Below are positions 3,032 through 44,000 of a stretch of DNA of 64,000 bases, in pieces. This DNA comes from a virus. Below the pieces are notes generated by a model that was given only the letters and a program-made list of their open reading frames with translations, made no database searches and was not told the DNA's origin. The position numbers were made by a program, and so were the translations under genes. The stretch covers positions 6,724 through 70,723 of IMG/VR virus record IMGVR_UViG_3300036800_000041. The stretch is one strand, 5' to 3'. The first letter of the stretch is position 1, and every line of letters starts with the position of its first letter.

Positions 3032-3598
3032 ATGCCGCGCATTCTAGGGATCGACAGCTCACTAACGGCGACGGGGCTGTGTCGCGTTGACATCGACACT
3101 CACAAGCCGGGTCCATTCAGCGCGACACTGGTAGAGGCGAAGATCGACGTTTGCACCGTCAGCGCGCCCAAGCCGGCAAAAGACAAGAGCAAACGTGCGA
3201 TGGCCCGGCGGGTGTCCGTGCTGCTGGAGCAGATCGAAGCAGCACTGGAAGGCGTCGACTTGGTGGCCCTGGAAGAACTCGCTTACGGTGCTAAGGGTGA
3301 ATCCTCATGGGTGCTGCCGTGGATCTGGGGAGAAGTCATCCGGCTGTGCGAACGCCACGACATCGATCTCGTCATCGTCAATGTTGCCACCGTGAAAAAG
3401 TACGCGACCGGCAAGGGCAACGCTGACAAAGACACCGTCCTATTAACGACGACACGGCGCTACCCTGACGTTACGCTGACCAACAATAACGAAGCCGACG
3501 CCATGGTTATCGCTGCAATCGGCTGCCGTTATCTTGGGTTTCCAATTGACACAGTCCCCAAGGTCAACCTCGAATTTATGGGAAAGCTGCATTGGTAG
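3032..3598 (+). CDS. ruvC: RuvC-like Holliday junction resolvase
   Basis: ILGIDSSLTATG, VALEE, KKYATGKGNADK and NEADA acidic catalytic motifs. Confidence 0.9.
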   Translation: MPRILGIDSSLTATGLCRVDIDTHKPGPFSATLVEAKIDVCTVSAPKPAKDKSKRAMARRVSVLLEQIEAALEGVDLVALEELAYGAKGESSWVLPWIWGEVIRLCERHDIDLVIVNVATVKKYATGKGNADKDTVLLTTTRRYPDVTLTNNNEADAMVIAAIGCRYLGFPIDTVPKVNLEFMGKLHW

Positions 3599-3723
3599 AC
3601 GATTCAGATCTGGAGGGTATCCGGGTGTACAACTTCCGGGGGGCTCCTCCCCCGTTGCAACCCAAGATCCTCTTAACTCGCGGCTACGATGCGGAAGATG
3701 ATGGCCGAGATGGCGGCGCGGCG

Positions 3724-3869
3724 ATGACCGATGAACACCTGCTCGACCGGATCACCGAGATGGTGCGCGACCACCGGCAAGCCCCGATCGAGACGATATC
3801 TGGAGACTCATTCGGGAGCATCGCCAGGTCGGCTGGCGTCGGCGCTTTACCGCCAACGACCCGACGTAA
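3724..3869 (+). pseudogene. small gene apparently broken by a frameshift near 3780
   Basis: MTDEHLLDRITEMVRDHRQ in one frame continues plausibly as SPDRDDIWRLIREHRQVGWRRRFTANDPT* in another frame; that TAA lies inside the dif-like site. Confidence 0.4.
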
Positions 3870-3887
3870 CGCACGATTATCGGCACT
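3859..3887 (-). other. dif-like (XerC/XerD) recombination site, type A
   Basis: Minus strand AGTGCCGATAA-TCGTGCG-TTACGTCGGGT: 11-bp arms, 7-bp spacer. Confidence 0.65.
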
Positions 3888-3901
3888 CGACGGAGGAAGA
3901 C

Positions 3902-4099
3902 ATGACAAACCCAGATACCGAGCGCGGCTTGTACGGCAAGTACCGCGTCGAGAAGATCAACGGCAAGCCAGTCGGGCGTGCGTTCGTCCTTGCCTACGAC
4001 AGCGACCCGCACGCCCGTGTCGCCCTTGCGGCGTATGCAGATTCATGCGAGGCGGATTATCCACAGTTGGCCGCTGACCTGCATAAACAATTGGCCTAG
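3902..4099 (+). CDS. small phage protein (GLYGKYRVEK...FVL...DPHARVALAAYA)
   Basis: GGAGGA RBS; recognisable small phage-protein motif; lies between two dif-like sites. Confidence 0.8.
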   Translation: MTNPDTERGLYGKYRVEKINGKPVGRAFVLAYDSDPHARVALAAYADSCEADYPQLAADLHKQLA

Positions 4100-4105
4100 C
4101 GCAAC

Positions 4106-4291
4106 ATGAAGCAATGGCGAGTGGTGTCGCGTGAGGACAAACTAGGCAACCTACTGTGGTCTCTGCAATACGACGTGATCTGGCTAGATGGTTCGCAGTA
4201 TGGCCTGTGGCGGGAGGATCGGGTGTTCCGCGACGAGGACATGGCAATGACTGATCTAGCCTTCGTTCAGAGCCATCCCGAGACGACATAA
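4106..4291 (+). CDS. hypothetical protein (61 aa)
   Basis: ORF whose TAA stop is part of the downstream dif-like site. Confidence 0.65.
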   Translation: MKQWRVVSREDKLGNLLWSLQYDVIWLDGSQYGLWREDRVFRDEDMAMTDLAFVQSHPETT

Positions 4292-4309
4292 GGCCCGGTT
4301 ATCGGGCTA
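4281..4309 (-). other. dif-like recombination site, type B
   Basis: Minus strand TAGCCCGATAA-CCGGGCC-TTATGTCGTCT. Confidence 0.65.
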
Positions 4310-4372
4310 AGTGGGTCAAAGGCACGGCCCAGCACCCCCTTGGCCGTTATCGGCGGACCGGTAACCCGATGG

Positions 4373-6253: not shown

Positions 6254-6367
6254 TCACACCCAATCAGCTTTAACCAACAACGCCACGATCAGCAATAAGA
6301 TAAACACTACCGATAAAGTAACAACTATCGTCTCTATTCCCGACGAACCAGGATCCTGATCGGTCAC
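6254..6367 (-). CDS. small single-TM peptide
   Basis: GTG...IVVTLSVVFILLLIVALLVKADWV; GTGA overlap with the upstream kinase stop. Confidence 0.45.
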   Translation of the reverse strand: MTDQDPGSSGIETIVVTLSVVFILLLIVALLVKADWV

Positions 6368-6954
6368 GCGGTCACCTTCAATTGTGCTACCGCTTGAAGT
6401 TTGTCAATCAGCTCATCGGGATGACCACGTACCACGCTGACACCCGCCGGTGGATTATCGGCAAGGTTCCGTGTAACCGTCAATCGCCCGCGGACCCAGC
6501 CCGTGTTCTGGAAGTTGCCCAGCTGTTTGGACCGGATCTGATGCCACGCTTCGACGTCAGGATGATCGAGCACCACCAGCAACACGGCGTAGCCGGCTTG
6601 CACCGCCGCGGTCAGGAATCGGGTATTGCCGAGCCGGGCACCCTCGGCCAGCAGGATCGGATAGGGCCGGGTCGCGATCCATGGCATGGCGCGGGTGATG
6701 ATCGAGCTCGCCAAGGCGTCGGTGCCGCTGAAGTCGCCACGTTGACGCCCGATTTCGGCGTGGGTCGCGGCGCCCAGAGCAGATGTGAGCAACTGGTCAT
6801 GAGGCACGGGATTGTCTATCGGAAGCCGGTCGAAGTCCTGTGTCAGCCGACGCATCAGTGTCGATTTGCCCGAGCCAGGCGCTCCGATCAGATAAATCAA
6901 CCGGTAATTGGCCTGCATGACGATGAACTCAGGAACACTGACGAAAGAGACCAT
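6364..6954 (-). CDS. P-loop nucleotide kinase (adenylate kinase-like)
   Basis: YLIGAPGSGKST Walker A, FSGTDAL, EGARL; upstream of terminase as in cluster B. Start uncertain (6954 or 6918). Confidence 0.75.
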   Translation of the reverse strand: MVSFVSVPEFIVMQANYRLIYLIGAPGSGKSTLMRRLTQDFDRLPIDNPVPHDQLLTSALGAATHAEIGRQRGDFSGTDALASSIITRAMPWIATRPYPILLAEGARLGNTRFLTAAVQAGYAVLLVVLDHPDVEAWHQIRSKQLGNFQNTGWVRGRLTVTRNLADNPPAGVSVVRGHPDELIDKLQAVAQLKVTA

Positions 6955-15762: not shown

Positions 15763-15831
15763 TTCGAGCCTTCCCGGCGGGTACCTCCCGCCTATGCCGT
15801 CGACACTACCGACAACGGTAGGGATTGTCAA
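15763..15831 (-). promoter_or_regulatory. repeated promoter-operator-hairpin-RBS unit, copy 1
   Basis: TTGACA-ATCCCTACCGTTGTCGG-TAGTGT...GGCGGGAGGTACCCGCC-GGGAAGG-ATG. Confidence 0.85.
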
Positions 15832-15930
15832 CCATCCCTTCAGAAGTGATGATCTCGATTACTCCGGCACGCCATGCCAGCGCGTAAACCTGCTCTACGA
15901 TCGTGGCGCTTATGCGCTGCACTGCCCTGG

Positions 15931-16644
15931 TCATGGCCTCAGGCCCTCGCTGTCGTCTGTGCTGTCGTCGTCGGCCGGCAACATGGCGCTAGCGCTGCGC
16001 TGTGTTTCGGCGATATAAGCATCCGAGTAGGCCTGCTCGTATTCGTTCAGTAGGTCGTCTGCCTCGTCGTCATCTTCGGTTACGCCTACCTCGGCGAGAA
16101 CGTCGCGCGGCAACGGTCCATCTGACCATTCGCCGGACAACGGCGCCGGAACGTCGAACTCGAAATCGTCGGACAGAACCGCGCGCAGCGTTTCGATCGA
16201 CGTGTTGCCGTCGATGACCCAAGAACCGGCCGCGCGTCCCGCCTCGGCGCCGAGCTCACGCATACGGTCGGCCGGATCCTCGGCGAGCATGCTCAGTTCG
16301 TCTTCAAAGTGATACGCCCATTCGTTGACGTGCGCCGGGAACAGATCAGAGTTTTCAGACGTGCTACCGCGGCGCATTTCGTAGCGATAGGCCTCGGCCG
16401 CGGCACCGAGAAAACTTGCCAGCGTGCGCAGTATGTCCGCGACGTCGACAACGGCGCCGCAGCCTGACCGAATGTCGTTGCCCTCGTAGATCCAAGGGTC
16501 ATGAGCAGGGTTGATTGTGTAGGCGTAGCGCTGACGGTAGCCGCTGTCTTCGGGCTGCCATTCGGCACCGATGGATTCCACTGTGAGTGTCGACCCGTCA
16601 GACAGAGTGACAGTTTTGATAGGCGATGTGCTGGTCTGAGACAT
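15931..16644 (-). CDS. acidic hypothetical protein
   Basis: 237 aa, very D/E-rich; has its own promoter unit. Confidence 0.85.
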   Translation of the reverse strand: MSQTSTSPIKTVTLSDGSTLTVESIGAEWQPEDSGYRQRYAYTINPAHDPWIYEGNDIRSGCGAVVDVADILRTLASFLGAAAEAYRYEMRRGSTSENSDLFPAHVNEWAYHFEDELSMLAEDPADRMRELGAEAGRAAGSWVIDGNTSIETLRAVLSDDFEFDVPAPLSGEWSDGPLPRDVLAEVGVTEDDDEADDLLNEYEQAYSDAYIAETQRSASAMLPADDDSTDDSEGLRP

Positions 16645-16714
16645 TTCGAACCTTTCCCGGCGGGTACCTCCCGCCTATGCAGTCGACACTACCGACAACG
16701 GTAGGGATTGTCAA
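16645..16714 (-). promoter_or_regulatory. repeated promoter unit, copy 2
   Basis: Near-identical to 15763-15831. Confidence 0.85.
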
Positions 16715-16729
16715 CGGGTCTCAGACAGT

Positions 16730-16778
16730 CAATCACCGGGCCCGCCTAAATGATCTAGGTTGGCGGATCCGGTGATTG
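16730..16778 (-). terminator. long hairpin downstream of a unit gene
   Basis: CAATCACCGG...CCGGTGATTG; repeated at 17351. Confidence 0.6.
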
Positions 16779-16801
16779 TGTTGACGTGCGCCGCGCCGGC
16801 G

Positions 16802-17269
16802 CTATGCGTTCTCGCAAATGTCCTCCCAACGATATCCGCTCGCGAGCCGGCGGAGCAGAGCGCCGCACTTGCACGATTGGACGTAGTAAGCGCCGCCGGC
16901 GCTTTGACCGTTCGTATCACCGGACAACCAATTGTGTTTGACGTGTGCCGCGTCGCGCGTAAGCGTCCGGTACCGATCGCCGGTTGCCCAATGGAATTGT
17001 TCGGCACCCTCATAGACACGCGGCACACGTGCGGCCGAATCGACGTTGAACAGGTGCGCGAGCACGATGCCCCACTCATCCCAGGTTGCGGTGGGATAAC
17101 CGAGATTTCCGTACATTCCGCCATTGCGGCCGGATCCGCTTAGCGTGACGTTGAATGCGCGAGCGCGCGAGTATGAGCCCTTGACGTTGAAGCCTTGCAA
17201 GTCGACGCCGGCCGCGGTAGCGGCTGCGTCGAAGTCACTGTAAACAAGCGTGTCGCTGTGGATGATCAT
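16802..17269 (-). CDS. hypothetical protein
   Basis: 155 aa; ATWDEWG motif, C-terminal CKCG. Confidence 0.85.
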   Translation of the reverse strand: MIIHSDTLVYSDFDAAATAAGVDLQGFNVKGSYSRARAFNVTLSGSGRNGGMYGNLGYPTATWDEWGIVLAHLFNVDSAARVPRVYEGAEQFHWATGDRYRTLTRDAAHVKHNWLSGDTNGQSAGGAYYVQSCKCGALLRRLASGYRWEDICENA

Positions 17270-17346
17270 GGTGAGCCCTTCAGATTGTGCGGCGAGTACC
17301 TCCCGCCTATGCGATTCACACTACCGACAACGGTAGGGAATGTCAA
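17270..17346 (-). promoter_or_regulatory. repeated promoter unit, copy 3
   Basis: TTGACA-TTCCCTACCGTTGTCGG-TAGTGT; hairpin GGCGGGAGGTACTCGCC. Confidence 0.85.
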
Positions 17347-17350
17347 ACGA

Positions 17351-17384
17351 CAATCACCGGACCCGTTGCCGGATCCGGTGATTG
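17351..17384 (-). terminator. hairpin, second copy
   Basis: CAATCACCGGA...TCCGGTGATTG. Confidence 0.6.
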
Positions 17385-17403
17385 TATTGACGTGCGCCGG
17401 CCG

Positions 17404-17643
17404 CTATCGGCCAGCCTTACTCGCGAGTCTGTCGATTGCCTTCCAACTGTATTCGGCGCTGAAACCGGCGAGCGGATGCCCATTGCGGACAGTGACGCGG
17501 GCAAATGGCAGCACAGCGCCGGATACCTGGACCGGTACACCGGCGACGCTAAGACCAGCGCCAGAATTTGCACGAGCCATAATCCGGCGCGCGCGGTCCG
17601 CTCCGCTGTCGCCGCGCGCGTCATCCTTCGGCGCCGCGCTCAT
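17404..17643 (-). CDS. hypothetical protein
   Basis: ATGA overlap with the upstream gene. Confidence 0.65.
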   Translation of the reverse strand: MSAAPKDDARGDSGADRARRIMARANSGAGLSVAGVPVQVSGAVLPFARVTVRNGHPLAGFSAEYSWKAIDRLASKAGR

Positions 17644-17957
17644 TTCGGACCTTCCACCCTGCTCGCGAGCGAGCGAACCGCGGCAACGTGATCGGCTCGG
17701 TACGTGGTTCGGCTCGGTGCGCTGAAATATTGGCGAATGATCCAAGCCTCGGCCGTGTCGTCATAGCCGGCGCGTTCGTTTACCAGCGTGTCGACCGTTC
17801 TATCCCACGGGTCACAGATTGTTACCCGCCGTGCTTTGTACCCGTCAAGCAAGCGCCGGCGTTCGCGCACCGGTTCGTCCAATGCCCACATGAGTGCTGC
17901 AATGGCCATGTCATTGTGAGAGTCGTATGCGCCCGGCGACGCTGGATTAAATGACAT
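17640..17957 (-). CDS. hypothetical protein
   Basis: Follows the leader hairpin and GGAAGG RBS. Confidence 0.75.
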   Translation of the reverse strand: MSFNPASPGAYDSHNDMAIAALMWALDEPVRERRRLLDGYKARRVTICDPWDRTVDTLVNERAGYDDTAEAWIIRQYFSAPSRTTYRADHVAAVRSLASRVEGPK

Positions 17958-17959
17958 TT

Positions 17960-18090
17960 CAATGAGCCTTCCCGGCGGGTACCTCCCGCCTACAGAACAG
18001 ACCCTAGCGTGTTCGGCCGCTATTGACAAGTCTTACTTAGTCGGTATTGTCGGACTGTTAGGCGGGAGATACCCGCCGGATAGGAGGGCA
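17960..18090. promoter_or_regulatory. back-to-back divergent promoters sharing a TTGACAA -35 core, each followed by the leader hairpin
   Basis: Minus: TTGTCA-N17-TAGGGT. Plus: TTGACA-N16-TATTGT. Hairpins at 17974-17990 and 18061-18077. Confidence 0.7.
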
Positions 18091-18280: not shown

Positions 18281-18437
18281 ACATGCGCGGGAATCCTAAA
18301 GCATGCTTTTTCCTGACAATTCGACATGCGCGGGAATCCTAAAGCATGCTTTTTCCTGACAATTCGACATGCGCGGGAATCCTAAAGCATGCTTTTTCCT
18401 GACAATTCGACATGCACGGGAATCCTAAAGCATGCTT
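18281..18437. repeat. 43-bp tandem repeat, about 3.6 copies
   Basis: ACATGCGCGGGAATCCTAAAGCATGCTTTTTCCTGACAATTCG at 18281, 18324 and 18367; partial copy at 18410. Confidence 0.95.
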
Positions 18438-18458
18438 ATTAGCTGAAATGGAAATTGA

Positions 18459-23576: not shown

Positions 23577-26438
23577 ATGCTCGGTGCCAAACCTTTAGAA
23601 GCCATCCTCGGTAGTGGTGTTGATTCTACTAATCACGATGCGATGCGGTCATTTGTCCGCGCCGCGTGCAGTGAAGGTTTATCGCTGCTGCTGATCCTGC
23701 CCAATTCAAAGCAGCCTGCCGATATGCGCACCCCGCGCCAGCGCACCGCCGATGATAAGGCCGTCCGGCTACAGGCCAAAGAAGCCGGCCGACACGACTG
23801 GGAGCGCGTACGCAGCCCATCGGGCTTGGCACTGGCCAGCACCGATGCAAAGACGGTGCTGAAGTACCTGGACCGCTATTGCGACATGTTCAGCAAGTGG
23901 CACGATCTGACCGACGATGGTGTTCTGGTGGATTTCGACGCCAAGCGCGCCAAGGCCGGCGAAATCGAGATTATCGAGCCGGTCGCGGTCAACCTGGCTG
24001 TCGAGGTCGGTGGATCCGGTCGTGTAGTGGTCGATTGCGACACCCGCGAACAATTGGGGCGGTTCTTAGAGGTCAGCCAAGCGCCGTCCGACATGCCGCC
24101 GACGGTGACCAGTCCCGGTCAGCGCAACGTTGAAGGTGTGTGGGCACACAAGGATGGTGGCCATTTTTGGTTCACTGTGCCCGATGAAGTGATCCCGATA
24201 TTGCCGCGAAACTCCGGCGCGCTGACGTGGGGCGGTGATCACGGCTTCGCGGTGCTGTGGGAGCGGCGCTATGTGCTGATTCCACCATCGTGTCGCCCAG
24301 AGGGCTGTTATGAACTAACCGGCCGTGAATATGAACTGCCGGAATGGCTTTCGGACGCAATTATCGAGCACGGCGAAGCCCGTTTTGAGCGCAGCGTCGG
24401 CAATCGTGAAGCATTCACCGATAGTGACGATGCGTTGAGTAAAGCAATCGACAGTTGGGCCGAATCGGCCAGCTGGGCCGACATTTTGGAGCCGTTGGGC
24501 TGGACGCCGGCGCCGCGGTCCGATGGCTGTGGCTGCGCCGTGTGGAGTGCGCCAGGGCAACATGCCAGTCCGAAGTCAGCTACCGCGCACGATTCCGGTT
24601 GCTCGCTGGGCCGCTACACCGAGGTCAACTGTCCGCTGCACATTTGGACTGACCACGACGCACCGCCCTTCACCGATGACATCGGCACTGAGGGCTGGTC
24701 CCCGACTTTTAGCAAGTTACAGGCCGTTGCACGGATCGACTATGGCGGCAACATCGGTAAAGCAATGGATGAGCTCGGCCTGACGCCCGATCTGGGCATT
24801 GGTGCGGATATGGGCGTCGGGCCGGCCCGCGACATCGGCGACGACGCCGACGTGAGCATGGGCAATCTGCGCGAGGCTGATGACGGTGAAATCGAGACTG
24901 TCGATCGCCTAGCGACTGCACAAGACGGGCGGTTTGACCAGTGGCCTTCCAGCGAATCGCCAGCCGCGCACGAATCTGCATACAACGAAGCTGAGCACGG
25001 TGAAAACTGGTGCGTGCCCTGTGGCACCGGTACGGGAATTTTCGTAACCGATCCCGAGGACGGCAACCTTTATCACGCCGTTGACGATGATGATGCAAGC
25101 GAAAGTGGTCACCTCGCGCAGCCTGTGATCGCGTCCGAGAACGGTGTCGACCACATCTCGGCTGATCAGTTCGACCTTGCCGGCGCACTGCCCGAGCGCG
25201 ATACGAAACGTATCGAGGCGACACAGAACGAATCGCCGTTCGCCGATCGTGTCGATAACGCGGATCCTGACGTGTTCGAATCGGGCATGACCGGCGTGCC
25301 GCGGATCGCGCCGTTCTCCCATTGGCGTGATCTTCCGCCGCCGGAGTTCGTCATCGACGGTCTAATCGAGCATGGCGGTTTCAGCTGCCTGATCGGCCCG
25401 CCCGGCGTCGGCAAGTCGACTGTGGCCCTCGATATGGCCTGCCACATCGCCACCGGTCGACGTTGGCAGGGCAGGCAAACCCTTAAGACGAAAATCATGT
25501 ATATGCCGGGAGAAGGGCTCTCAGGGGCGATTCAGCGGCTCATCGCGTGGTGTGATGCGCGCGGTATCGATGAAAGCGACCTGAGCGAGAATTTACTACT
25601 GGCCGATTCTATTTTGCAGCTCGCCGCCAAAAATGAAGCATGGGCCGAGTTCGGCGCCTATGTCGCGCGCCAGCAGGTCGGGCTGATTATTTTCGACACG
25701 TTTGCCCGTATGTCGTTGCGGCTGGAAGAAAATAGCGCCACCGACGTCGGTCTGGCCGTCGGTCGATTCGACAACGTGCGCAAGCTGACCAACGCAGGCG
25801 TGATGGTCATCCACCACACCGCCAAGGGCCAAGACTTCGCTCGTGGATCTTCGGCGCTCAATGGCGCAATCGAATCTGAGCTGTTGCTCAAGCATGGCGA
25901 ATGGGATTACACGCCGCTGCTGGACGCTGACGGTAAGCTGCCCGGTAGGCCGATTCAGCTGACCACCAGCAAGCAGCGCAACGCCGAGCAGTTGGACGAA
26001 CCATTGCCGCTGATGATGCGGTCGTACCCGCTGCCCGACAGCGACGAATTGACCGCGGCGATCATCACCGGCCCGAACGGTGAAATTGACCCGATGAGCG
26101 GCGAAATCGTGTTGGCACGGCCCGTCGCTGAGCCGTTGGTCGAAACGGCTATACGGATCCGCGAATTTGTCGATCGCTTGCCCCAACAGGGCGCCAGCCG
26201 AAGCGAATTGGTTATCGGAGTGCGCCCTGATCCGTATGCGTTGTCGCGTGCCGACGCTGGAGCTTATTGGAAGCTACGTATCGGTGAAGCGGTCGATAGA
26301 GCGTTGCGATATCGGTTGATCGAGACACTGACCGGCACACCGAGCGGCGGTCGGTACATTCCGTGTTCGCTGGGAACATCCGAGGATGCACGCCAACGTA
26401 CGGCTGACGAAGTGATCAACCAAAACAATCAGGATTGA
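23577..26438 (+). CDS. bifunctional primase-polymerase / RecA-type (AAA_25-like) helicase
   Basis: VVVDCD and GGHFWF (AEP motifs); GPPGVGKS Walker A, IIFDT Walker B, IHHTAK..RGSSAL. Confidence 0.9.
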   Translation: MLGAKPLEAILGSGVDSTNHDAMRSFVRAACSEGLSLLLILPNSKQPADMRTPRQRTADDKAVRLQAKEAGRHDWERVRSPSGLALASTDAKTVLKYLDRYCDMFSKWHDLTDDGVLVDFDAKRAKAGEIEIIEPVAVNLAVEVGGSGRVVVDCDTREQLGRFLEVSQAPSDMPPTVTSPGQRNVEGVWAHKDGGHFWFTVPDEVIPILPRNSGALTWGGDHGFAVLWERRYVLIPPSCRPEGCYELTGREYELPEWLSDAIIEHGEARFERSVGNREAFTDSDDALSKAIDSWAESASWADILEPLGWTPAPRSDGCGCAVWSAPGQHASPKSATAHDSGCSLGRYTEVNCPLHIWTDHDAPPFTDDIGTEGWSPTFSKLQAVARIDYGGNIGKAMDELGLTPDLGIGADMGVGPARDIGDDADVSMGNLREADDGEIETVDRLATAQDGRFDQWPSSESPAAHESAYNEAEHGENWCVPCGTGTGIFVTDPEDGNLYHAVDDDDASESGHLAQPVIASENGVDHISADQFDLAGALPERDTKRIEATQNESPFADRVDNADPDVFESGMTGVPRIAPFSHWRDLPPPEFVIDGLIEHGGFSCLIGPPGVGKSTVALDMACHIATGRRWQGRQTLKTKIMYMPGEGLSGAIQRLIAWCDARGIDESDLSENLLLADSILQLAAKNEAWAEFGAYVARQQVGLIIFDTFARMSLRLEENSATDVGLAVGRFDNVRKLTNAGVMVIHHTAKGQDFARGSSALNGAIESELLLKHGEWDYTPLLDADGKLPGRPIQLTTSKQRNAEQLDEPLPLMMRSYPLPDSDELTAAIITGPNGEIDPMSGEIVLARPVAEPLVETAIRIREFVDRLPQQGASRSELVIGVRPDPYALSRADAGAYWKLRIGEAVDRALRYRLIETLTGTPSGGRYIPCSLGTSEDARQRTADEVINQNNQD

Positions 26439-26499
26439 TCAGTCTTACAGATGGCGTCAGTTATTGGCATTTATCGGTATATGAAACGGAGAACAACAA

Positions 26500-26679
26500 G
26501 TGGCCAAGATTGTCATTACTTACGAATACGAGCCGAACATGGAACATTACCCGGCCGGGACAGAAACCGCAGCTGAGGCTATGAAGATAGATGTTGAACA
26601 GGTTCAAAATGGGTCCGTTTACTGGGATGAGTTCCTAGAGGGAGGATCGGGCAAGATCACCGTTGAAGTGGTCGAGTGA
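26500..26679 (+). CDS. small acidic hypothetical protein (59 aa)
   Basis: GGAG RBS; GTG AKIVITYEYEPN...VEVVE; lower GC; stop abuts a dif-like site. Confidence 0.7.
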   Translation: MAKIVITYEYEPNMEHYPAGTETAAEAMKIDVEQVQNGSVYWDEFLEGGSGKITVEVVE

Positions 26680-26706
26680 TCCGACGTAACGCGGATTATC
26701 GGTAGA
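26679..26706 (-). other. dif-like recombination site, type A
   Basis: Minus strand TCTACCGATAA-TCCGCG-TTACGTCGGAT, canonical 11-6-11 geometry. Confidence 0.7.
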
Positions 26707-26717
26707 GAGGGTAAGGG

Positions 26718-26867
26718 ATGTTTCCATACAGGATCATTCAGCAGGCGGCTGAGGAATGGTTTGACCCGGAGGGGATTCTCCCTGGTGAGGCGTCTACCGA
26801 ACTCTTCGCGCAATTCCTACTCGCGAAACTCGGGGAGCACGGATTCGCCATCACCGAGGCGACATAA
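26718..26867 (+). CDS. small hypothetical protein (49 aa)
   Basis: MFPYRIIQQAAEEWFDPEG...AITEAT; TAA within the next dif-like site. Confidence 0.65.
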   Translation: MFPYRIIQQAAEEWFDPEGILPGEASTELFAQFLLAKLGEHGFAITEAT

Positions 26868-26886
26868 GGCCCGGGTTATCGGCGAA
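26857..26886 (-). other. dif-like recombination site, type B
   Basis: Minus strand TTCGCCGATAA-CCCGGGCC-TTATGTCGCCT (8-bp spacer). Confidence 0.65.
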
Positions 26887-27108
26887 ATCTCGATCAAAAT
26901 TCCCCAAAAAATTTTTTCGTTAAATCGCCAGATATTTCAGTCCACAATCAGATTCGGAACACGCTATGGTCTGAAGCTAGACAAACCCGTCGAAGTCGGA
27001 CTACAGTGTGAACCAGTCAGTGAGCCGGGGACAGCCCCCTAGCTTGGCCCGGCTCACCGACCACCACGCACCCGTATACGCTCACTACAACTCTGAAAGC
27101 ATCTGCAC

Positions 27109-28830
27109 ATGAATGCACCGATGGAGGCTTCCCGCTCAGTTGCACCAAGAGCCTTGCGGCCATACCAGATCGAAGCAGCTGATGCTGTCGAAGCTAATTG
27201 GGCCGATGGCATTTGGCGTACCGGTGTCGTGCTGCCGACCGGCGCCGGTAAATCGACCGTCATCGGCGAGCTATTGCTACGTGCCTACCGCCGCGGCCAG
27301 CGCAGTATTGCTGTCGCTCACCGCGGCGAGCTGCTTGACCAGATGCGTCGCGACTTTCACGCTGTCGCGCCTGATGTCCCGACAACACAGACCGGGATCG
27401 TGCGCGCCGAGCAGGATGATCACCATTGCCCGATCGTGTTCGCTACCTTGCAAACGCTAGCCACCGCTCACCGGCGCGAAGCATTGGGGCACCGTGACGT
27501 ACTGATCTGGGACGAAGTGCACCACGCTGGCGCCGACGGTTTCCACACCACGTTCAGCGAGCTCGGCGGCTACGACGGCGCGCGTATGGCCGGCTTCACT
27601 GCCACGATGGCCCGCGCCGAACGCGGTCGGATCGGTCTCGGCGACGTCATCGAAAAGATCAGCTATGAGCGCGACCTGGCGTGGGCGATCAAGCACGGCT
27701 ACCTGGTGATGCCACACGGACTGACGGTACGGATCAAGGGGCTGAATGCTCTGAACGACGTTCGTAATGTAGCCGGAGATTTCCACCAGACCGAGCTCGC
27801 CGAAATCATGGAAGCGGCTTCAACTTACGTCGTGGAAGCCATTGAGAAGCACGCCATCGACCGGCGCAGCATCATTTTCGCCGCCAGTGTCGACGCCGCC
27901 GAAGAAATCAGCCGGGCGATCAACGCCAGCGGCAAATTGAAAGCCGACTACGTTACCGGCGCAATGAATTACGAATCACGTAAGCCTATCTATGATAACT
28001 TCCGTACCGGCGCGATCGACTGCCTGGTAACCGTCATGGTGCTAACCGAAGGCGCCGACTTCCCAATGTGTGATTGCGTAGTGCTGGCCCGGCCTACACG
28101 CTCGCGCAACCTGTACAGCCAGATGATCGGGCGCAGCCTCCGTCTCTATGAGAACAAAAACGATGCGTTAGTTCTGGACCTGGCGGGCAGTGCCCGCAAT
28201 ATGAAGCTGGTCAGGTTGACCGAGCTGCTGGAAGGCGTCGAGCAGACTGACGTTGACCCCGACGGCAACCTGATTGAGCCGGAACCCCTAGAGGACATCG
28301 GCGCATTCGAGGCGGAAACCAAGATCGTCCGTGTCGGACCGGTCGACATGGTGACGATCGATCTGCTGGCCAACGATGACACGCTCTGGCTGCAGACCCC
28401 GGCCGGCGTCCCGTTCCTGTCGCTGATGGGCGCCGGTGACGTCGTGTTCCTATGGCCGCAGGACGGTCGACGACCGAGCGGTGATGAAAAGCTGAAATGG
28501 GCTGTCGGCCAGATCAACACACGCCGCCCCAAGATCGGTGGATGGGTCAACGAAACAGGCCGTTACCCGAGCGACGAGCCGGTCTATATCGACCTTCCCG
28601 ATGCGCTGGAAGCCGCCGAGGTATGGGTTGTCACGACTGAGCAAGGCCTTGCCAGCCGCAATGCTGGCTGGCGGCGCAATCAGGCGCCCAGCGATAAGCA
28701 GATGAATCTGGCCCGCAATCTGGGCATTGTCGGCTACGACTTCATGACCAAGGCACGCCTGAGCGATGAAATCAGCATCACGTTCGCCAGCCGGGTGCTC
28801 GACGGTGCGATGGAAGGGACCGTGAGATGA
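27109..28830 (+). CDS. superfamily 2 DEAD/DEAH-like helicase
   Basis: PTGAGKS, DEVH, TAT, LTEGAD.P, QMIGRSLR. Confidence 0.95.
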   Translation: MNAPMEASRSVAPRALRPYQIEAADAVEANWADGIWRTGVVLPTGAGKSTVIGELLLRAYRRGQRSIAVAHRGELLDQMRRDFHAVAPDVPTTQTGIVRAEQDDHHCPIVFATLQTLATAHRREALGHRDVLIWDEVHHAGADGFHTTFSELGGYDGARMAGFTATMARAERGRIGLGDVIEKISYERDLAWAIKHGYLVMPHGLTVRIKGLNALNDVRNVAGDFHQTELAEIMEAASTYVVEAIEKHAIDRRSIIFAASVDAAEEISRAINASGKLKADYVTGAMNYESRKPIYDNFRTGAIDCLVTVMVLTEGADFPMCDCVVLARPTRSRNLYSQMIGRSLRLYENKNDALVLDLAGSARNMKLVRLTELLEGVEQTDVDPDGNLIEPEPLEDIGAFEAETKIVRVGPVDMVTIDLLANDDTLWLQTPAGVPFLSLMGAGDVVFLWPQDGRRPSGDEKLKWAVGQINTRRPKIGGWVNETGRYPSDEPVYIDLPDALEAAEVWVVTTEQGLASRNAGWRRNQAPSDKQMNLARNLGIVGYDFMTKARLSDEISITFASRVLDGAMEGTVR

Positions 28831-40586: not shown

Positions 40587-43500
40587 CTAACTCCAATTAC
40601 CGACTGTTTGGACGCCTTGTGCGCCAATGGGCATGATTCTGAAGTAACTGCCCGCTCCGACCTGCACTGAGGGGCCTTGAGCACCGGAGGTCATGGAGAC
40701 CTGCGGGACAACGGTTCCAGCAGTACTGATCACGATCCGGCCCTTGATGAGAACCTGGCCGACCGTGTTGGCGTTGGCGCCCGTCAACGCTGTGGTCGCT
40801 GTGGTGTTATAGCTGAGGAATGGGGAGGCTGCACCGGCAGCCTTAGCGGCCAAGGCAACCCACTGCTGGCTGGCGATAGTTGCGCCGCCGGATGATCCGG
40901 GTACCAGAGCGAACCCGAATTGGCCGGAAACAGCCGCCATTGCAGACAGCGAGAATGCGCACTCGAAAAGATAAGCACCCACGCCGAGTTGAACCGCGCC
41001 ATTAGTGGAGGCGTTGAGCAACTGTTGTGCCGCCGTTTGTTGTGTGAGCGTATAGGCGCTGGTCAGTACGCAGAACTGCTCGGTGTCGATAAGTTGGCGG
41101 GTACTGGCTAGCGCGGTGGCGTAGAAAACGGTTCCGTCGAACTCCTCGGCACCTGCGGCGGGAGTGGTCAGGTTCGATCCGGACGTGAATGTCAGGGGGG
41201 CAACGCTTGTGGTGCCTGCGGGCAGCGTGATCGCGCCAGAGCCGCCTGAGCCTTGCGGTCCCTGCGCACCCTGAGCACCCGCTGATCCTTGTGCCCCGGC
41301 CGACCCCTGCGGTCCCGCTGATCCTTGTGCCCCGGCCGACCCCTGCGGTCCCGCTGATCCTTGCGGACCCGTTGCGCCAACCGTGTTCCAGTCAGCGGCA
41401 GCGGTCGGCGTCGCTTTCTGGGACCGGAACGCCATCGCGGTGCCCGCCGGCACCGTGGTAATAGTGTTCGCCCCGGACGATTGCACTGTGACAGCACCCG
41501 TGCTCTGGTTAACGATCACCATGTCGTATCCGACAGGAACCGAAGTCGTTGGAAGCTTGACGGTTTGCGTAGTGGTGCCGGTAAAAACCTGGACTTGGGT
41601 GCTGGTGATCGTCAAAGTTGTGGTTCCGGCAGCCGTAACTGTCGATGTCGACAGGCGAATGAACGCATTCGCCGACATGTCTAGGCTGCCATCCCATTCG
41701 GCGACGGTGTTTGCCGTCGGTGTGGACGTGCCCCCTGCTACCGAGCCCTGCGGTCCTTGGAATCCTTGCGCCCCGGCCGCGCCTTGGGCCCCGGCTGCGC
41801 CTTGAGCGCCAGCAGAGCCTTGAGCACCCGCAGCACCTTGTGCGCCGACGGAACCTTGCGCCCCAACACTGCCCTGTGGGCCGCTCGATCCTTGCGGACC
41901 CTGCGGGCCTTGTGTCCCTTGAAATGCCCAGTTCGCCGCCGTGGTCGGGGTGATCACCCGCGCGGTGAACAGCATCGACGTGCCGGGAGGCACGGTCGAG
42001 ATAGTGTTGGCCCCCGAGGACTCGACGGTGACCACACCAGTGCCGGTGCAACTATTGATGATCAGGAATTGCAAGCCGGCTGGAACACTTGCTGTCGGCA
42101 GTTTGATGAGCTGGTTAGTGTTGGTGCCGGTGATTTCCTGAGTACCGGCCGACGAAATAGTAAGCGTTATCAGCGATGCGCTCGCTGCGGTGGTGGCGAA
42201 TCCCTGAATGAAGTTGTTTGCGCTGAAATTGACAGAGCTGTCCCATTCGGCCACTGAGTTTGCCGTTGGAGTTGACGTTCCACCTACTACCGAACCCTGC
42301 GGACCTTGGAATCCTTGCGCTCCGGCCGCACCTTGCGCTCCGGCCGCACCTTGCGCTCCGGCCGCACCTTGAGAACCTGCTGCGCCTTGAGAACCTGCTG
42401 CGCCTTGTGGGCCAGTCGGTCCCTGTGGGCCTTGCGGTCCTGCAGCGAGGTAACCGTTATCCCATGTCCCGGCTGTGGTGCCGTTGGCCATCAAAGTGAA
42501 TCGCGCCAGAGTTCCGGCCGACATCGGCTGTAATGTCGAGCCGCCGTTGGTTTTAACGGTGACTATGCCGGTGGACCGGTTAGCGATCCAGAACGAGCGC
42601 CCGACGCCTAACGTCGTCGCATCCGGCAGCACCACCGACTGCGTGGTAGTTCCGGTGAACTGCTGAAAGTCTTTGCTGCTCACCGTCAGAGTCGTGGTAC
42701 CGGCCGCTGTCGCAGTGGTCGCGGTGCCGACAAGCAGCGTGGTATTGGTTAACGTCTGGGTAGCTGTCAACCCGGCGAGGGTGTCGTTGATCGGTGGCAT
42801 CACCAGCGTGACGGGGTTAGCGCCCTGCAAGACCAAAGTCTGCTCTAGCAGCATGTATTGGCCGCCGAACGCGGAGAAAGCGTTGTATTGCGGCCACCAG
42901 GATGTTGCGGTAGTCGGAGTCGCTGTCAGTGCGGTGATTAGGGCTGAGCCGACGCCGCCACCGTAAATGATAATGATGGGTGTACCGTCACTGGCCTGCA
43001 CTGTGACCGTGCCCGTGGACTGGTTGAGGATGTAATAACCCATGCCTTCGACCACGCCGGTTGAAGGCAGTTTAATCGTCTGATTCGCGCTACCGGTGAC
43101 GACCTGGATACCGTCGGATGCCGCTGTCAGCGTGGTCGTAGTGCCCGCTGAGGTGATGCTGCTGCCGAGCGTGATCAAGTTGTGCGCGCTCAAGTTAACG
43201 TTGGTATCCCACTGAGCGTTAGTACTCGCCGTCGGGGTACTGGTACCGCTACCACCGCCGCCGCCGGTTCCCTGCGGGCCTTGTGCGCCCTGAGCGCCAG
43301 CCGCACCTTGAGCGCCGACTGCACCTTGTGGACCAGCGCCTTGTGGCCCCTGTGGTCCTGTCGGCCCTTCCCACACGAATCCTGAACCGCTGGCAGGGAA
43401 TGCGGTGCCTGACCAGATGTAGAGTAGGCCATCGCTGGCCACTATCCAGCCTTTTGTCGCGTCCCCGGAGCCTAGGCCGGAGGGCAGTGCAGCATAATTG

Positions 43501-44000
43501 GCAACTTGACCAACAAGAATGAATCCTGTTCCAGGGGCGCCGATTGCACCGGCCGGACCTTGCGGTCCGCGAATTGAGGTGACGGTTTGCACCCATTCGT
43601 TCTCAGAACCGGTGACGTTGACGTAATTCCAGACTGAACCGTCACTGCCAATGGCGACGTCGCCTAGCAGTGGCGATAAGTACATCGATGACAAGGTGCC
43701 GTAGATACGTGGCATTGCACCGGTCGGACCGATGACGCTGAGGGTATCGGCCCAGAAGTTATAGGACGCTGAATATATCCGCAGGATGCCCTTGGTGGGT
43801 CCGGCGACGACAACTTGCCAGTCGCCGGTGTTCGGCCAAACGACGTTGACAAATGGCGGATCGTCAGTGGTAGTGCCGAAGATCCGGGTGCCGGACTGTC
43901 CCGCCTGCCCAGTTGGGCCGCGCAGCCCGTAGGACGCGAGCAGCACACCGCCCAGTGCGGTGGCCTCGTCAGAGGCGATGGGGTCGAATACGTCGGTCAC
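40587..44000 (-). CDS. collagen-like tail fibre protein
   Basis: Several (G-X-Q/A) tracts alternating with four repeats of a TTTLT..S..Q..TG..Q.VKLP...I.N.STG.VTV domain. Confidence 0.85.

What the first reader, a model, noticed from the sequence alone, without database searches (positions are those of the whole stretch)
26454..26886. Second dif-like cassette array (site-gene-site-gene-site) between primase and helicase
Seen: a degenerate site at 26454-26481 (..TGGCAT-TTATCGGTATA), a 59-aa gene, ATCCGACGTAA-CGCGGA-TTATCGGTAGA (26679-26706), a 49-aa gene, then AGGCGACATAA-GGCCCGGG-TTATCGGCGAA (26857-26886). The same two site types occur in the same order as at 3.9-4.3 kb, 22 kb away: type A (CCGACGTAA-CGC..GA) upstream and type B (CGACATAA-GGCCCGG) downstream. 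Spacers are similar but the cargo genes are unrelated. The cargo genes look lower in GC, carry only an RBS and end at or in the site, as integron cassettes do. Inference: a reusable recombination-site system supplying promoterless mini-genes, which could explain some single-gene mosaicism in actinophages.
Basis: partly seen in the sequence, partly recalled or inferred. Interest (0 to 1): 0.85.

Follow-up and report, generated by a model that had tools for sequence, protein, structure and literature searches.

The report
Host dif-like sites bracketing phage mini-genes
A mycobacteriophage-like virus carries four close copies of its host group's chromosome dimer-resolution site (dif) exactly at the joints between small accessory genes, which suggests, but does not show, that the host's Xer recombinase can swap these genes in and out.

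Summary
The two full sites in the finding (26679-26706 and 26857-26886) are real. So is the matching pair at 3859-3887 and 4281-4309. The "degenerate site" at 26454-26481 is only a half-site (TTATCGG).

Read on the minus strand, all four sites are CCGATAA-N6-8-TTA(T/C)GTCG. A pattern taken from the phage hits Mycobacterium genomes once each, at a site that agrees with primers built on the M. tuberculosis dif used for Xer-cise. So the sites copy both arms of host dif. The genome has 4 sites with at most 1 mismatch; simulation expects 0.035.

The phage matches neither recombinase Pfam model tried. The sites share no RNA fold. The cargo genes have no promoter and end at or in a site.

Mobility is not shown:
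- Cargo homologs at 10 other loci lack the sites.
- No close relative is available. The more distant relatives swap genes in the same slot without sites.
- 13 other phage records hold one site in total.

Similar sites occur at a small-gene joint in a mycobacterial prophage-like region and on a Rhodococcus plasmid.

Verdict: probably real Xer-type sites at module joints, and a new variant of dif modules or IMEX arrays. The scan has noted dif-like sites in other phages before (e1-1959362, e1-3466435).

The parts
26471..26477 (-). Lone XerC-arm-like half-site (TTATCGG on +, CCGATAA on -), 22 nt before the GTG of the 59-aa gene. It is not a full site.
   Evidence: My count on the letters gives 4 of 7 mismatches in the partner arm at the best spacing. 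The site is not among those with at most 3 mismatches.
26500..26679 (+). 59-aa cargo gene (GTG start, GGAG RBS), GC 0.50. Its TGA stop abuts site A2.
   Evidence: ORF. phrog_1673, E 1.7e-11. Homologs at 45-51% identity in Aziz, Rey, GenevaB15 and Phlei. GC.
26679..26706 (-). Site A2. The XerD-like arm is ATCCGACGTAA (26679-26689), the 6-bp centre is CGCGGA (26690-26695) and the XerC-like arm is TTATCGGTAGA (26696-26706). On the minus strand it reads tcta CCGATAA TCCGCG TTACGTC ggat.
   Evidence: It matches 13 of 14 core positions of mycobacterial dif. Its XerD-like arm matches 10 of 11 positions of TTATGTCGGAT, seen in two actinobacterial genomes.
26718..26867 (+). 49-aa cargo gene (ATG start, RBS in GAGGGTAAGGG). 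Its TAA stop lies inside the XerD-like arm of B2. No homolog was found anywhere.
   Evidence: ORF. No tblastn hit in 50,697 phage records at E<=1. The only hit among 5.8 billion proteins is itself. No PHROG or Pfam family.
26857..26886 (-). Site B2. The XerD-like arm is AGGCGACATAA (26857-26867), the 8-bp centre is GGCCCGGG (26868-26875) and the XerC-like arm is TTATCGGCGAA (26876-26886). On the minus strand it reads ttcg CCGATAA CCCGGGCC TTATGTC gcct.
   Evidence: It matches 14 of 14 core positions of mycobacterial dif.
26887..27108 (+). Non-coding gap (GC 0.50) after the array, with one promoter-like site (26978-27007) ahead of the helicase gene.
3859..3887 (-). Site A1 (partner type of A2): ACCCGACGTAA-CGCACGA-TTATCGGCACT, with a 7-bp centre. 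Its TAA (3867-3869) is not in frame with any ORF that has a start codon. The frame-1 ORF 3592-4077 reads through the site.
3902..4291 (+). Cargo of locus 1: a 65-aa gene (3902-4099, phrog_9572) and a 61-aa gene (4106-4291, phrog_18047). The TAA of the second lies in the XerD-like arm of B1.
4281..4309 (-). Site B1 (partner type of B2): AGACGACATAA-GGCCCGG-TTATCGGGCTA, with a 7-bp centre.
   Evidence: It matches 14 of 14 core positions.
4347..4353 (-). Lone XerC-arm-like half-site TTATCGGCGGA in the convergent gap before the terminase gene.

Best explanation
The two full sites of this array (A2, B2) and their partners 22 kb away (A1, B1) are copies of the host clade's dif site. Each has a XerC-type arm (CCGATAA) and a XerD-type arm (TTA(T/C)GTCG) around a 6-8-bp centre, and all four point the same way.

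Shown:
- The sequence match to real mycobacterial dif, with the correct asymmetry.
- The non-random number of sites.
- Their position exactly at joints between small promoterless genes.
- No match in the phage to the two recombinase Pfam models tried.

Inferred:
- The host XerC/XerD pair (or a close Xer-like tyrosine recombinase) binds these sites and can cut and rejoin them.
- Each module runs from one centre to the next. It therefore starts with a XerC-type arm plus RBS and ends with a XerD-type arm that supplies or abuts the stop codon.
- The two centre types (A: CGC..GA; B: GGCCCGG) make neighbouring sites unable to recombine with each other. That keeps a module in place, while like-with-like exchange (A with A, B with B) between two DNA molecules could replace what lies between them. 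This is the route proposed for single dif modules of Acinetobacter plasmids.

Whether such exchange still happens, or the sites are left over from past events, is open.
For: (1) Match to host dif.
- The phage-derived pattern hits 3 of 4 Mycobacterium genomes once each: CCGATAA-G(C/G)(T/C)ACA-TTATGTCA.. (control 0).
- It hits 114 of 151 family genomes, against 4 hits for the reversed control.
- Primers on the M. tuberculosis Xer-cise dif read ..GCCGATAAGCGACA and, in reverse complement, GACATTATGTCAAGT (PMC5364183).

(2) Number of sites. There are 4 sites with at most 1 mismatch, against 0.035 simulated (max 1 of 200), then a gap with none at 2 mismatches.

(3) The outer XerD-like arms fall within natural dif variety.
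- TTATGTCGGAT and TTATGTCGTGT occur once each, with dif-like centres, in four actinobacterial genomes.
- TTATGTCGGGT occurs at the presumed dif of G039.

(4) The centres are conserved by type between loci (A1/A2; B1/B2 differ by one G), while the outer XerC-like arms are not. Recombination needs matching centres (10.1101/758037, passages; PMC13141974, passages).

(5) No PF00589 or PF00239 match in the phage at E<=1.

(6) The four sites share no RNA fold. Z-scores are -0.4 to -1.9, and the B1 hairpin is not kept in B2.

(7) Independent look-alikes.
- G059, a prophage-like early region: a 40-aa gene ends ...NPT-stop inside ACCCGACATAA-GGCACCGG-TTATCGG, followed by RBS and ATG. A half-site precedes the neighbouring gene.
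- G081: one full site and a second with 2 core mismatches, direct and 570 bp apart, around a 65-aa gene.
- G177: a 7-nt-centre site lies 930 bp from the presumed dif, in direct orientation.
- Rhodococcus plasmid p1: CCGATAA-CCAGGCC-TTATGTC, whose centre matches B1 at 6 of 7 positions, pairs with a second site 5.2 kb away across an accessory module.
Against: - No recombination product, empty site or alternative cargo between the same sites was found anywhere.
- Cargo homologs at 10 of 10 other loci have no sites. The Hawkeye homolog of the G059 neighbour gene has none either.
- No exact A or B site occurs in IMG/VR. BLAST of the sites against 50,697 phage records gave only chance-level hits.
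- 13 other whole phage records hold one site in total.
- The relatives' primase-helicase gaps (Acadian, 7 IMG/VR loci, 17 metagenome loci) have none with at most 1 mismatch.
- The partner sites differ in centre length by one base (A 7 vs 6; B 7 vs 8). That should hinder recombination between the two loci.
- Three of four centres are longer than the 6 bp of chromosomal dif.
- Position 8 of the XerD-like arm is G, where the Mycobacteriaceae dif sites whose outer arm I read, and their extra full sites, mostly have A.
- Four direct sites would put a lytic-type genome at risk of deletion.
- Adjacent sites lie only 178 and 422 bp apart.
- The TAA of A1 is not the stop of any ORF that has a start codon.
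Confidence: 0.5

Rival explanations
1. The sites are real Xer substrates, but their job is not cassette exchange. Possible roles: circularising infecting, terminally redundant DNA when a site lies in the redundancy (as P1 does with lox); resolving multimers of a plasmid-like state; or inserting the phage at the host dif as IMEX elements do.
For: - The dif mimicry is the same.
- The phage matches neither recombinase model tried.
- Next to the XerC-like arm, the A centres begin TCG (A1) and TCC (A2). These are the first three bases of the common host centres TCGACA and TCCACA.
- I recall that cluster-B-type phages are circularly permuted; no call here shows it.
Against: - Four sites of two types at gene joints is more than any of these roles needs.
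- No prophage closer than 51% TerL identity turned up in 401 family genomes.
- This reading does not explain why the stops and starts of the small genes are built into the arms.
Confidence: 0.15
2. The sites are passive relics. The small modules were picked up, sites included, from Xer-site arrays of host plasmids, prophages or the dif neighbourhood, and the sites no longer do anything in the phage.
For: - Such arrays and sites exist in the host clade: G120 and G135 with 9 sites each, L141-L145, Rhodococcus p1, G177.
- The one-base differences in centre length, the half-sites at 26471 and 4347, and the out-of-frame TAA at A1 all look like decay.
- gene59 has low GC.
Against: - Two pairs remain 21/22 and 22/23 identical, centres included, while everything around them is unrelated. 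That argues for recent copying or for selection.
- 3 of 4 cargo genes belong to ordinary phage families, not to plasmid or chromosomal ones.
Confidence: 0.17
3. The sites are operators for a phage DNA-binding protein, or an RNA-level signal that couples the stop of one small gene to the start of the next. On this reading the likeness to dif is coincidental.
For: - The imperfect palindrome sits 4-10 nt before an RBS at A1, A2, the 26471 half-site and both G059 sites.
- TTATCGG is enriched overall (16 vs 5.75).
- A further copy lies 73 nt upstream of the terminase gene on its own strand.
Against: - Both arms match host dif with the correct asymmetry. Beyond the generic TAA..TTA core there are six more matching bases per site.
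- B1 and B2 are not followed by a gene.
- The sites share no RNA structure.
- There are only four full copies.
Confidence: 0.13
4. Chance resemblance of short repeats.
For: - The pattern was defined after the sites had been seen.
- A single 15-mer repeat in a 70-kb genome is not rare.
Against: - 4 observed vs 0.035 simulated.
- The match to host dif is independent of how the pattern was chosen.
- Both types occur in both loci in the same order, at gene ends.
Confidence: 0.02

Closest known systems
Chromosomal dif / XerCD of mycobacteria (the site used for Xer-cise)
   Same: - XerC-type arm ..CCGATAA and XerD-type arm TTATGTC.., with the same asymmetry.
- 14/14 (B sites) and 13/14 (A sites) core positions match.
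- Directly repeated sites around a cassette is the Xer-cise geometry (10.1101/758037, passages).
   Different: - Centres are 6, 7, 7 and 8 bp and GC-rich, not 6 bp ending ACA.
- The outer XerD arm has G at position 8.
- There are four copies in a phage, not one at a replication terminus.
- Neighbouring sites have unlike centres.
dif modules bounded by pdif sites in Acinetobacter plasmids
   Same: - Accessory genes are bracketed by Xer sites.
- Sites with identical or near-identical spacers recombine.
- The proposed replacement of a single module uses one like-spacer pair on the left and another on the right (PMC13141974, passages). The phage's two loci show the same A~A / B~B relation.
   Different: - pdif sites have 6-bp spacers and alternate in orientation (C and D modules). 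Here all four are direct.
- Here the carrier is a tailed phage and the modules are 180-420 bp single or double mini-genes.
- No second context of the same module is known.
IMEX arrays (CTXphi/TLCphi-type elements integrated at dif)
   Same: - Elements without an integrase are flanked by direct dif-like repeats and can stack as site-element-site-element-site. (The IMEX features here are from my own knowledge; of the papers I saw only listings and abstracts.)
- A candidate actinobacterial analogue is a 7-nt-centre site 930 bp from the presumed dif of G177.
   Different: - Here the target is a phage genome, not the chromosome's dif.
- The 'elements' are far too small to replicate or encode anything but one small protein.
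- No circular form is known.
Integron gene cassettes (attC, IntI)
   Same: Promoterless single genes, each with its own RBS, joined head to tail by recombination sites that overlap the gene ends.
   Different: - The phage has no tyrosine recombinase match.
- The sites are 28-bp duplex dif mimics. By my recollection (no call), attC sites are longer folded hairpins.
- No attI/Pc platform was identified.
Heterospecific lox/FRT pairs used for recombinase-mediated cassette exchange (engineering concept)
   Same: Two site types with the same arms but different centres flank the cargo. Only like sites recombine, so the cargo can be swapped but not excised.
   Different: That is a laboratory design using Cre or Flp. 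Here it would be natural and run by the host's Xer, and it is unproven.

Membership tests
XerC/XerD dif-type recombination site | Two unlike ~11-bp arms with inner ..ATAA / TTAT.., matching the host clade's dif arms | tested here: met
   The inner 7+7 positions match at 14/14 (B1, B2) and 13/14 (A1, A2) against the single-copy site of Mycobacterium genomes. That site agrees with the published Xer-cise primers.
XerC/XerD dif-type recombination site | Central region of 6 bp (chromosomal dif); the 6-8 bp range for plasmid Xer sites is recalled, not shown by a call | tested here: inconclusive
   A2 has 6 bp, A1 and B1 have 7, and B2 has 8. These fall in the 6-8 range, but only one equals the 6 bp of mycobacterial dif (10.1101/758037).
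XerC/XerD dif-type recombination site | Outer XerD arm conserved (AAGT/AGGT in Mycobacterium) | tested here: inconclusive
   The phage has GGGT, GGAT, GTCT and GCCT, unlike most Mycobacteriaceae sites. GGAT and GTGT and GGGT do occur at single-copy dif-like sites of some actinobacterial genomes.
XerC/XerD dif-type recombination site | Bound and recombined by XerC/XerD | not testable with these tools
   This needs EMSA and in vivo recombination assays.
Acinetobacter-type dif module | Module bounded by inversely oriented pdif sites (alternating C and D modules) with 6-bp spacers | tested here: not met
   All four phage sites share one orientation, and their spacers are 6-8 bp. The rule is taken from PMC13141974.
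Acinetobacter-type dif module | The same module found in different backbones or positions | tested here: not met
   No second copy of any cargo with sites was found. 10 of 10 homolog loci lack sites, and gene49 has no homolog at all.
IMEX | Integrase-less element flanked by direct dif-like repeats | tested here: met
   The repeats are direct. There is no PF00589 or PF00239 match.
IMEX | Integrated at the chromosomal dif; has a free circular or replicative form | tested here: not met
   The sites lie inside a 70.7-kb virus record. The modules are 180-420 bp and carry no replication functions.
Integron cassette array | IntI integrase, attI and folded attC sites | tested here: not met
   No tyrosine recombinase match. 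The sites are 28 bp and share no fold.
Intrinsic terminator / conserved RNA hairpin | A stable stem-loop shared by the copies | tested here: not met
   The four folds differ, and z-scores are -0.40 to -1.90. No terminator-like site was found on the + strand.

The most novel reading that the evidence does not exclude
Tailed actinophages, prophages and plasmids of the Mycobacteriales share a natural cassette-exchange system run by the host Xer recombinase. dif-mimic joints with 'address' centres of several types (here A and B) let promoterless mini-genes be swapped like-with-like between co-resident DNAs without any element-encoded recombinase. That would be a phage counterpart of Acinetobacter dif modules, working by the logic of heterospecific lox sites.
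Probability: 0.22. Interest if true: 0.85.

Novelty: new variant of a known kind. Interest (0 to 1): 0.66.

Why it matters
Gene-by-gene mosaicism of phage genomes is usually put down to illegitimate or short-homology recombination. A phage that keeps faithful copies of its host's dif site exactly at the joints of small accessory genes would point to a site-specific route run by a host enzyme.

To my knowledge, Xer-bounded gene modules are documented mainly in Acinetobacter plasmids, and Xer-exploiting phages are filamentous or other non-tailed phages. My three literature searches listed no report of either in tailed actinophages or in Actinobacteria.

The idea is directly testable in Mycolicibacterium smegmatis with existing Xer-cise tools. 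If the sites bind XerCD without recombining, that is still a new host-phage interface.

Tried and rejected
RNA hairpin or terminator reading: the four sites fold differently and no better than shuffles. Rejected.

Promoter reading: no promoter-like site lies at or just after the sites.

Phage-encoded recombinase: no match to PF00589 or PF00239.

Searches for the same sites elsewhere:
- A generic scan of IMG/VR gave at least 119 loci with one match each, which I judge to be about the chance level. None of the fetched stretches has a second site.
- Exact A and B patterns gave 0 hits in IMG/VR.
- BLAST of 40-bp sites against the phage collection gave only chance-level hits.
- BLAST of the A2 site against plasmids gave nothing meaningful.

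Relatives:
- No DNA relative of 26400-27110 was found in the phage collection.
- The helicase-based searches gave at best 68% identity (IMG/VR) and 75% (metagenomes). None has a site with at most 1 mismatch.
- TerL in 401 family genomes reaches at most 51% identity, so no close prophage was found.

The frame-1 product upstream of A1 (P0002) has no homolog in phages and no PHROG or Pfam family. I could not decide whether A1 interrupts a gene.

Sequencing runs:
- One DNA holder was listed, a soil metagenome that may be the source. No RNA holder was listed.
- Only contigs could be laid. One contig covers 24836-27447 without differences.
- The four joints listed lie elsewhere and have short sides (20-70 letters). 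None lies at a site.
- This says nothing about rare recombinants.

Small regions between paired sites in L143 and L144 showed no convincing genes. I did not pursue them.

Tools and files closed:
- Supplementary files of papers were closed. Tables of dif variants (images in 10.1101/758037) could not be read.
Full report
WHAT THE DNA IS. The window is bases 6724-70723 of a single 70,723-bp virus record. Its helicase is 67-69% identical to those of Acadian, Reprobate, Baee and other ~70-kb Mycobacterium smegmatis phages. I recall these as cluster B; no call here says so. Nothing closer turned up in GenBank phages, IMG/VR, JGI metagenomes or 401 genomes of the host family. The one sequencing run that holds the stretch is a soil metagenome.

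THE OBSERVATION. On the + strand the finding's region reads as follows:
- the primase stop at 26438;
- a 61-bp AT-rich gap holding TTATCGG (26471-26477);
- a 59-aa gene (26500-26679);
- ATCCGACGTAA-CGCGGA-TTATCGGTAGA (A2, 26679-26706);
- a 49-aa gene (26718-26867);
- AGGCGACATAA-GGCCCGGG-TTATCGGCGAA (B2, 26857-26886);
- 222 bp of non-coding DNA, and the helicase gene at 27109.

At 3.9-4.3 kb the same two types recur in the same order. ACCCGACGTAA-CGCACGA-TTATCGG (A1) and AGACGACATAA-GGCCCGG-TTATCGG (B1) lie around a 65-aa and a 61-aa gene.

By my reading of the letters, the other arm mismatches at 4 of 7 positions at the best spacing. It does not appear among sites with up to 3 mismatches. The array is therefore half-site, gene, site, gene, site.

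Three of the four cargo genes belong to ordinary phage families: phrog_1673, phrog_9572 and phrog_18047. The 49-aa gene has no relative at all. Cargo GC is 0.50, 0.56, 0.596 and 0.548, against 0.598 for the genome. No promoter-like site precedes any cargo gene.

IS IT dif-LIKE? On the minus strand all four sites read CCGATAA-N6-8-TTA(T/C)GTCG. I took the pattern CCGATAA-N{6,8}-TTATGTC from the phage and searched four Mycobacterium genomes reached through cargo-homolog loci. Three had exactly one hit, of the form CCGATAA-G(C/G)(T/C)ACA-TTATGTCA(A/G)(G/T)T. The reversed-pattern control gave none.

In 151 genomes of that family, 114 had a hit. Usually it was a single hit with a 6-nt centre ending ACA. 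The control gave 4 hits.

A paper that builds Xer-excisable cassettes on the putative M. tuberculosis dif lists primers ending ..GCCGATAAGCGACA and, in reverse complement, GACATTATGTCAAGT. That agrees with the same site (PMC5364183, passages). A second paper states that the mycobacterial site is 28 bp with a XerC left arm, a 6-bp centre and a XerD right arm. It also states that sites with unlike centres do not recombine (10.1101/758037, passages).

The phage sites thus copy both arms of host dif with the right asymmetry. The extra CCG and GTC on either side are specific to this host clade and were not part of that recognition.

In the phage genome, sites with at most 1 mismatch number 4, against 0.035 in 200 Markov simulations. 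None has exactly 2 mismatches.

The outer XerD-like arms (GGGT, GGAT, GTCT, GCCT) differ from the AAGT/AGGT of the Mycobacteriaceae sites whose outer arm I read. However, TTATGTCGGAT and TTATGTCGTGT occur as single-copy, dif-like sites in four other actinobacterial genomes, and TTATGTCGGGT occurs in G039. These arms therefore lie within natural dif variety, and the true host may carry such a dif.

WHAT IT IS NOT.
- The four sites share no RNA structure and fold no better than shuffles.
- They are not promoters or intrinsic terminators.
- The phage has no match to the tyrosine or serine recombinase models, so any recombination would have to be done by the host.

EVIDENCE ABOUT MOBILITY. This is the weak part.
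- Homologs of the cargo genes sit in ordinary overlapping operons without any such site. This holds for four phages (Aziz, phiGD23-1, WXIN, phiGD89-1) and six bacterial genome loci.
- The primase-helicase slot is variable in relatives. Acadian has three unrelated genes there. A metagenomic relative with a 75%-identical helicase has one 231-aa gene. Neither these nor 23 further related loci have a site.
- Thirteen other whole phage records hold a single exact site in total, in WXIN.
- The contigs of the source run show only the form in the window. That cannot exclude rare recombinants.
- The two sites of each type differ in centre length by one base. Nearest neighbours are only 178 and 422 bp apart and have unlike centres.

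EVIDENCE FROM ELSEWHERE THAT THE SITE TYPE IS REAL.
- G059. A prophage-like early region (HTH, PD-(D/E)XK nuclease, AAA_25/DnaB_C protein) holds a 40-aa gene that ends ..NPT-stop inside ACCCGACATAA-GGCACCGG-TTATCGG. An RBS and the ATG of a 45-aa gene follow. The gene before it is preceded by a lone TTATCGGCGAA half-site. This is the phage's layout again in unrelated DNA.
- G081. One full site and a second with 2 core mismatches lie 570 bp apart, in direct orientation, around a 65-aa gene.
- G177. A site with a 7-nt centre lies 930 bp from the presumed chromosomal dif, in direct orientation.
- Rhodococcus sp. M8 plasmid p1. It carries CCGATAA-CCAGGCC-TTATGTC, whose centre matches B1 at 6 of 7 positions. 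The BLAST E-value is 3, so the hit is weak on its own. A second full site lies 5.2 kb away in the same orientation across a four-gene accessory module, near a 465-aa 'recombinase XerD' gene.
- Several family genomes carry 4-9 extra full sites with varied centres clustered on single contigs.

MECHANISM I THINK MOST LIKELY (confidence 0.5). The sites are Xer-type recombination sites. A module runs from one centre to the next. It therefore begins with a XerC-type arm plus RBS and ends with a XerD-type arm that supplies or abuts the stop codon.
- At B1, B2 and G059 the TAA of the arm is the stop, always in the same phase (..NCG ACR TAA).
- At A2 a TGA abuts the arm.
- At A1 the TAA is out of frame with the only ORF that has a start codon.

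The centres differ between A and B, so neighbouring sites cannot complete an exchange with each other. Like sites on two molecules could. One A x A and one B x B event would replace the cargo. This is the two-step route proposed for replacing a single Acinetobacter dif module. There, the left spacers of the two plasmids are near-identical and so are the right ones (PMC13141974, Discussion passages).

Conservation of the centres by type between the two loci fits this reading, because the centre must match its partner for strand exchange. It fits a pure binding site less well.

- Shown: sequence mimicry, non-random count, placement, no match to either recombinase model.
- Inferred: Xer binding, exchange, and the meaning of the A and B types.

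RIVALS.
- The sites are Xer substrates used for another purpose: circularisation, multimer resolution, or integration at dif (0.15).
- They are relics carried in with modules captured from host Xer arrays (0.17).
- They are operators or coupling signals that only look like dif (0.13).
- Chance (0.02).

COMPARISON WITH KNOWN SYSTEMS.
- Chromosomal dif: the arms are shared, but not the centre length, copy number or location.
- Acinetobacter dif modules: the logic is shared, but the defining alternation of site orientation and the 6-bp spacer are not met, and no module has been seen in two contexts.
- IMEX arrays: the direct repeats and the lack of an integrase are shared, but the target is a phage and the 'elements' are mini-genes.
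- Integrons: these fail on integrase and site structure.

My three literature searches listed dif modules only for Acinetobacter. They listed Xer-exploiting phages only among filamentous and double-jelly-roll phages, and nothing for tailed actinophages (listings and abstracts only). Earlier notes of this scan report host-type dif sites or centre-coded joints in other phages (e1-1959362, e1-3466435, e1-5906091). I did not test those notes.

VERDICT. The dif-likeness is now tested and strong. The cassette-exchange inference is plausible and has a concrete precedent, but no recombination product supports it. It cannot account for actinophage mosaicism in general. I class this as a new variant of a known kind, with interest 0.66.

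Noticed in passing
window 3592-4077: The frame-1 ORF that starts overlapping the RuvC stop runs through site A1 and across the whole 65-aa gene in another frame, with no stop until 4077. The TAA of A1 is in a frame that is open from 3735 but has no start codon. This could be a frame change, an assembly indel, or a gene end disturbed by the site. The ORF has no homologs.
   Followed up: partly
window 15771-18030: Four copies of a 62-nt block (69-98% identical) lie at 15771, 16654, 17286 and 17969.
   Followed up: no
window 18281-18440: A near-perfect 43-bp tandem repeat of about 3.7 copies, each holding CATGC..GCATG.
   Followed up: no
window 41246-43369: Long runs of an 18-nt periodic repeat inside the 1137-aa minus-strand gene (40587-44000). 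They look like collagen-like Gly-X-Y coding repeats.
   Followed up: no
window 6310-6316 (minus strand) and 4347-4353, 6455-6461: Extra lone TTATCGG half-sites lie in or near intergenic DNA. One lies 73 nt upstream of the terminase gene on its own strand (TTATCGGTAG, as in A2). The 7-mer occurs 16 times in the window against 5.75 expected.
   Followed up: partly
L141, L142, L143, L145 (G120, G135, G046): Some genomes of the host family carry 4-9 extra full dif-like sites (..ACG CCGATAA NNNNNN TTATGTC AAGT) with varied centres. They are directly repeated 0.5-14 kb apart on one contig. These are candidate Xer-site arrays or dif modules in Actinobacteria.
   Followed up: partly
L180 (Rhodococcus sp. 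M8 plasmid p1, NZ_CP064066.1 17087-17107 and about 22.3 kb): Two direct dif-like sites bracket a 5.2-kb module (alcohol dehydrogenase, PaaI thioesterase, GntR, MFS). One has a 7-nt centre, CCAGGCC. A 465-aa 'recombinase XerD' and an HTH gene lie next to it.
   Followed up: partly
L191 7536-7976 (G059): A prophage-like early region has a full dif-like site and a half-site at joints between 84-, 40- and 45-aa genes, with the same stop-in-arm / arm-RBS-start layout as the phage. Hawkeye gp80, the nearest phage homolog of the 84-aa gene, has no such sites.
   Followed up: partly
L200 593 and 1523 (G177): A dif-like site with a 7-nt centre lies 930 bp from the presumed chromosomal dif (centre GATACA), in direct orientation. 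A 126-aa membrane-protein ORF lies between them. This is an IMEX-like arrangement.
   Followed up: no
window 24347-24863: The source run holds a second contig that differs at 73 of 517 positions over this part of the primase gene. A related strain is therefore present in the same sample.
   Followed up: no
L181 (Mycobacterium phage WXIN, OR813930.2 80183-80203): A single exact dif-like site, CCGATAA-GTCGACC-TTACGTCG, is the only one in 13 other phage records scanned.
   Followed up: no
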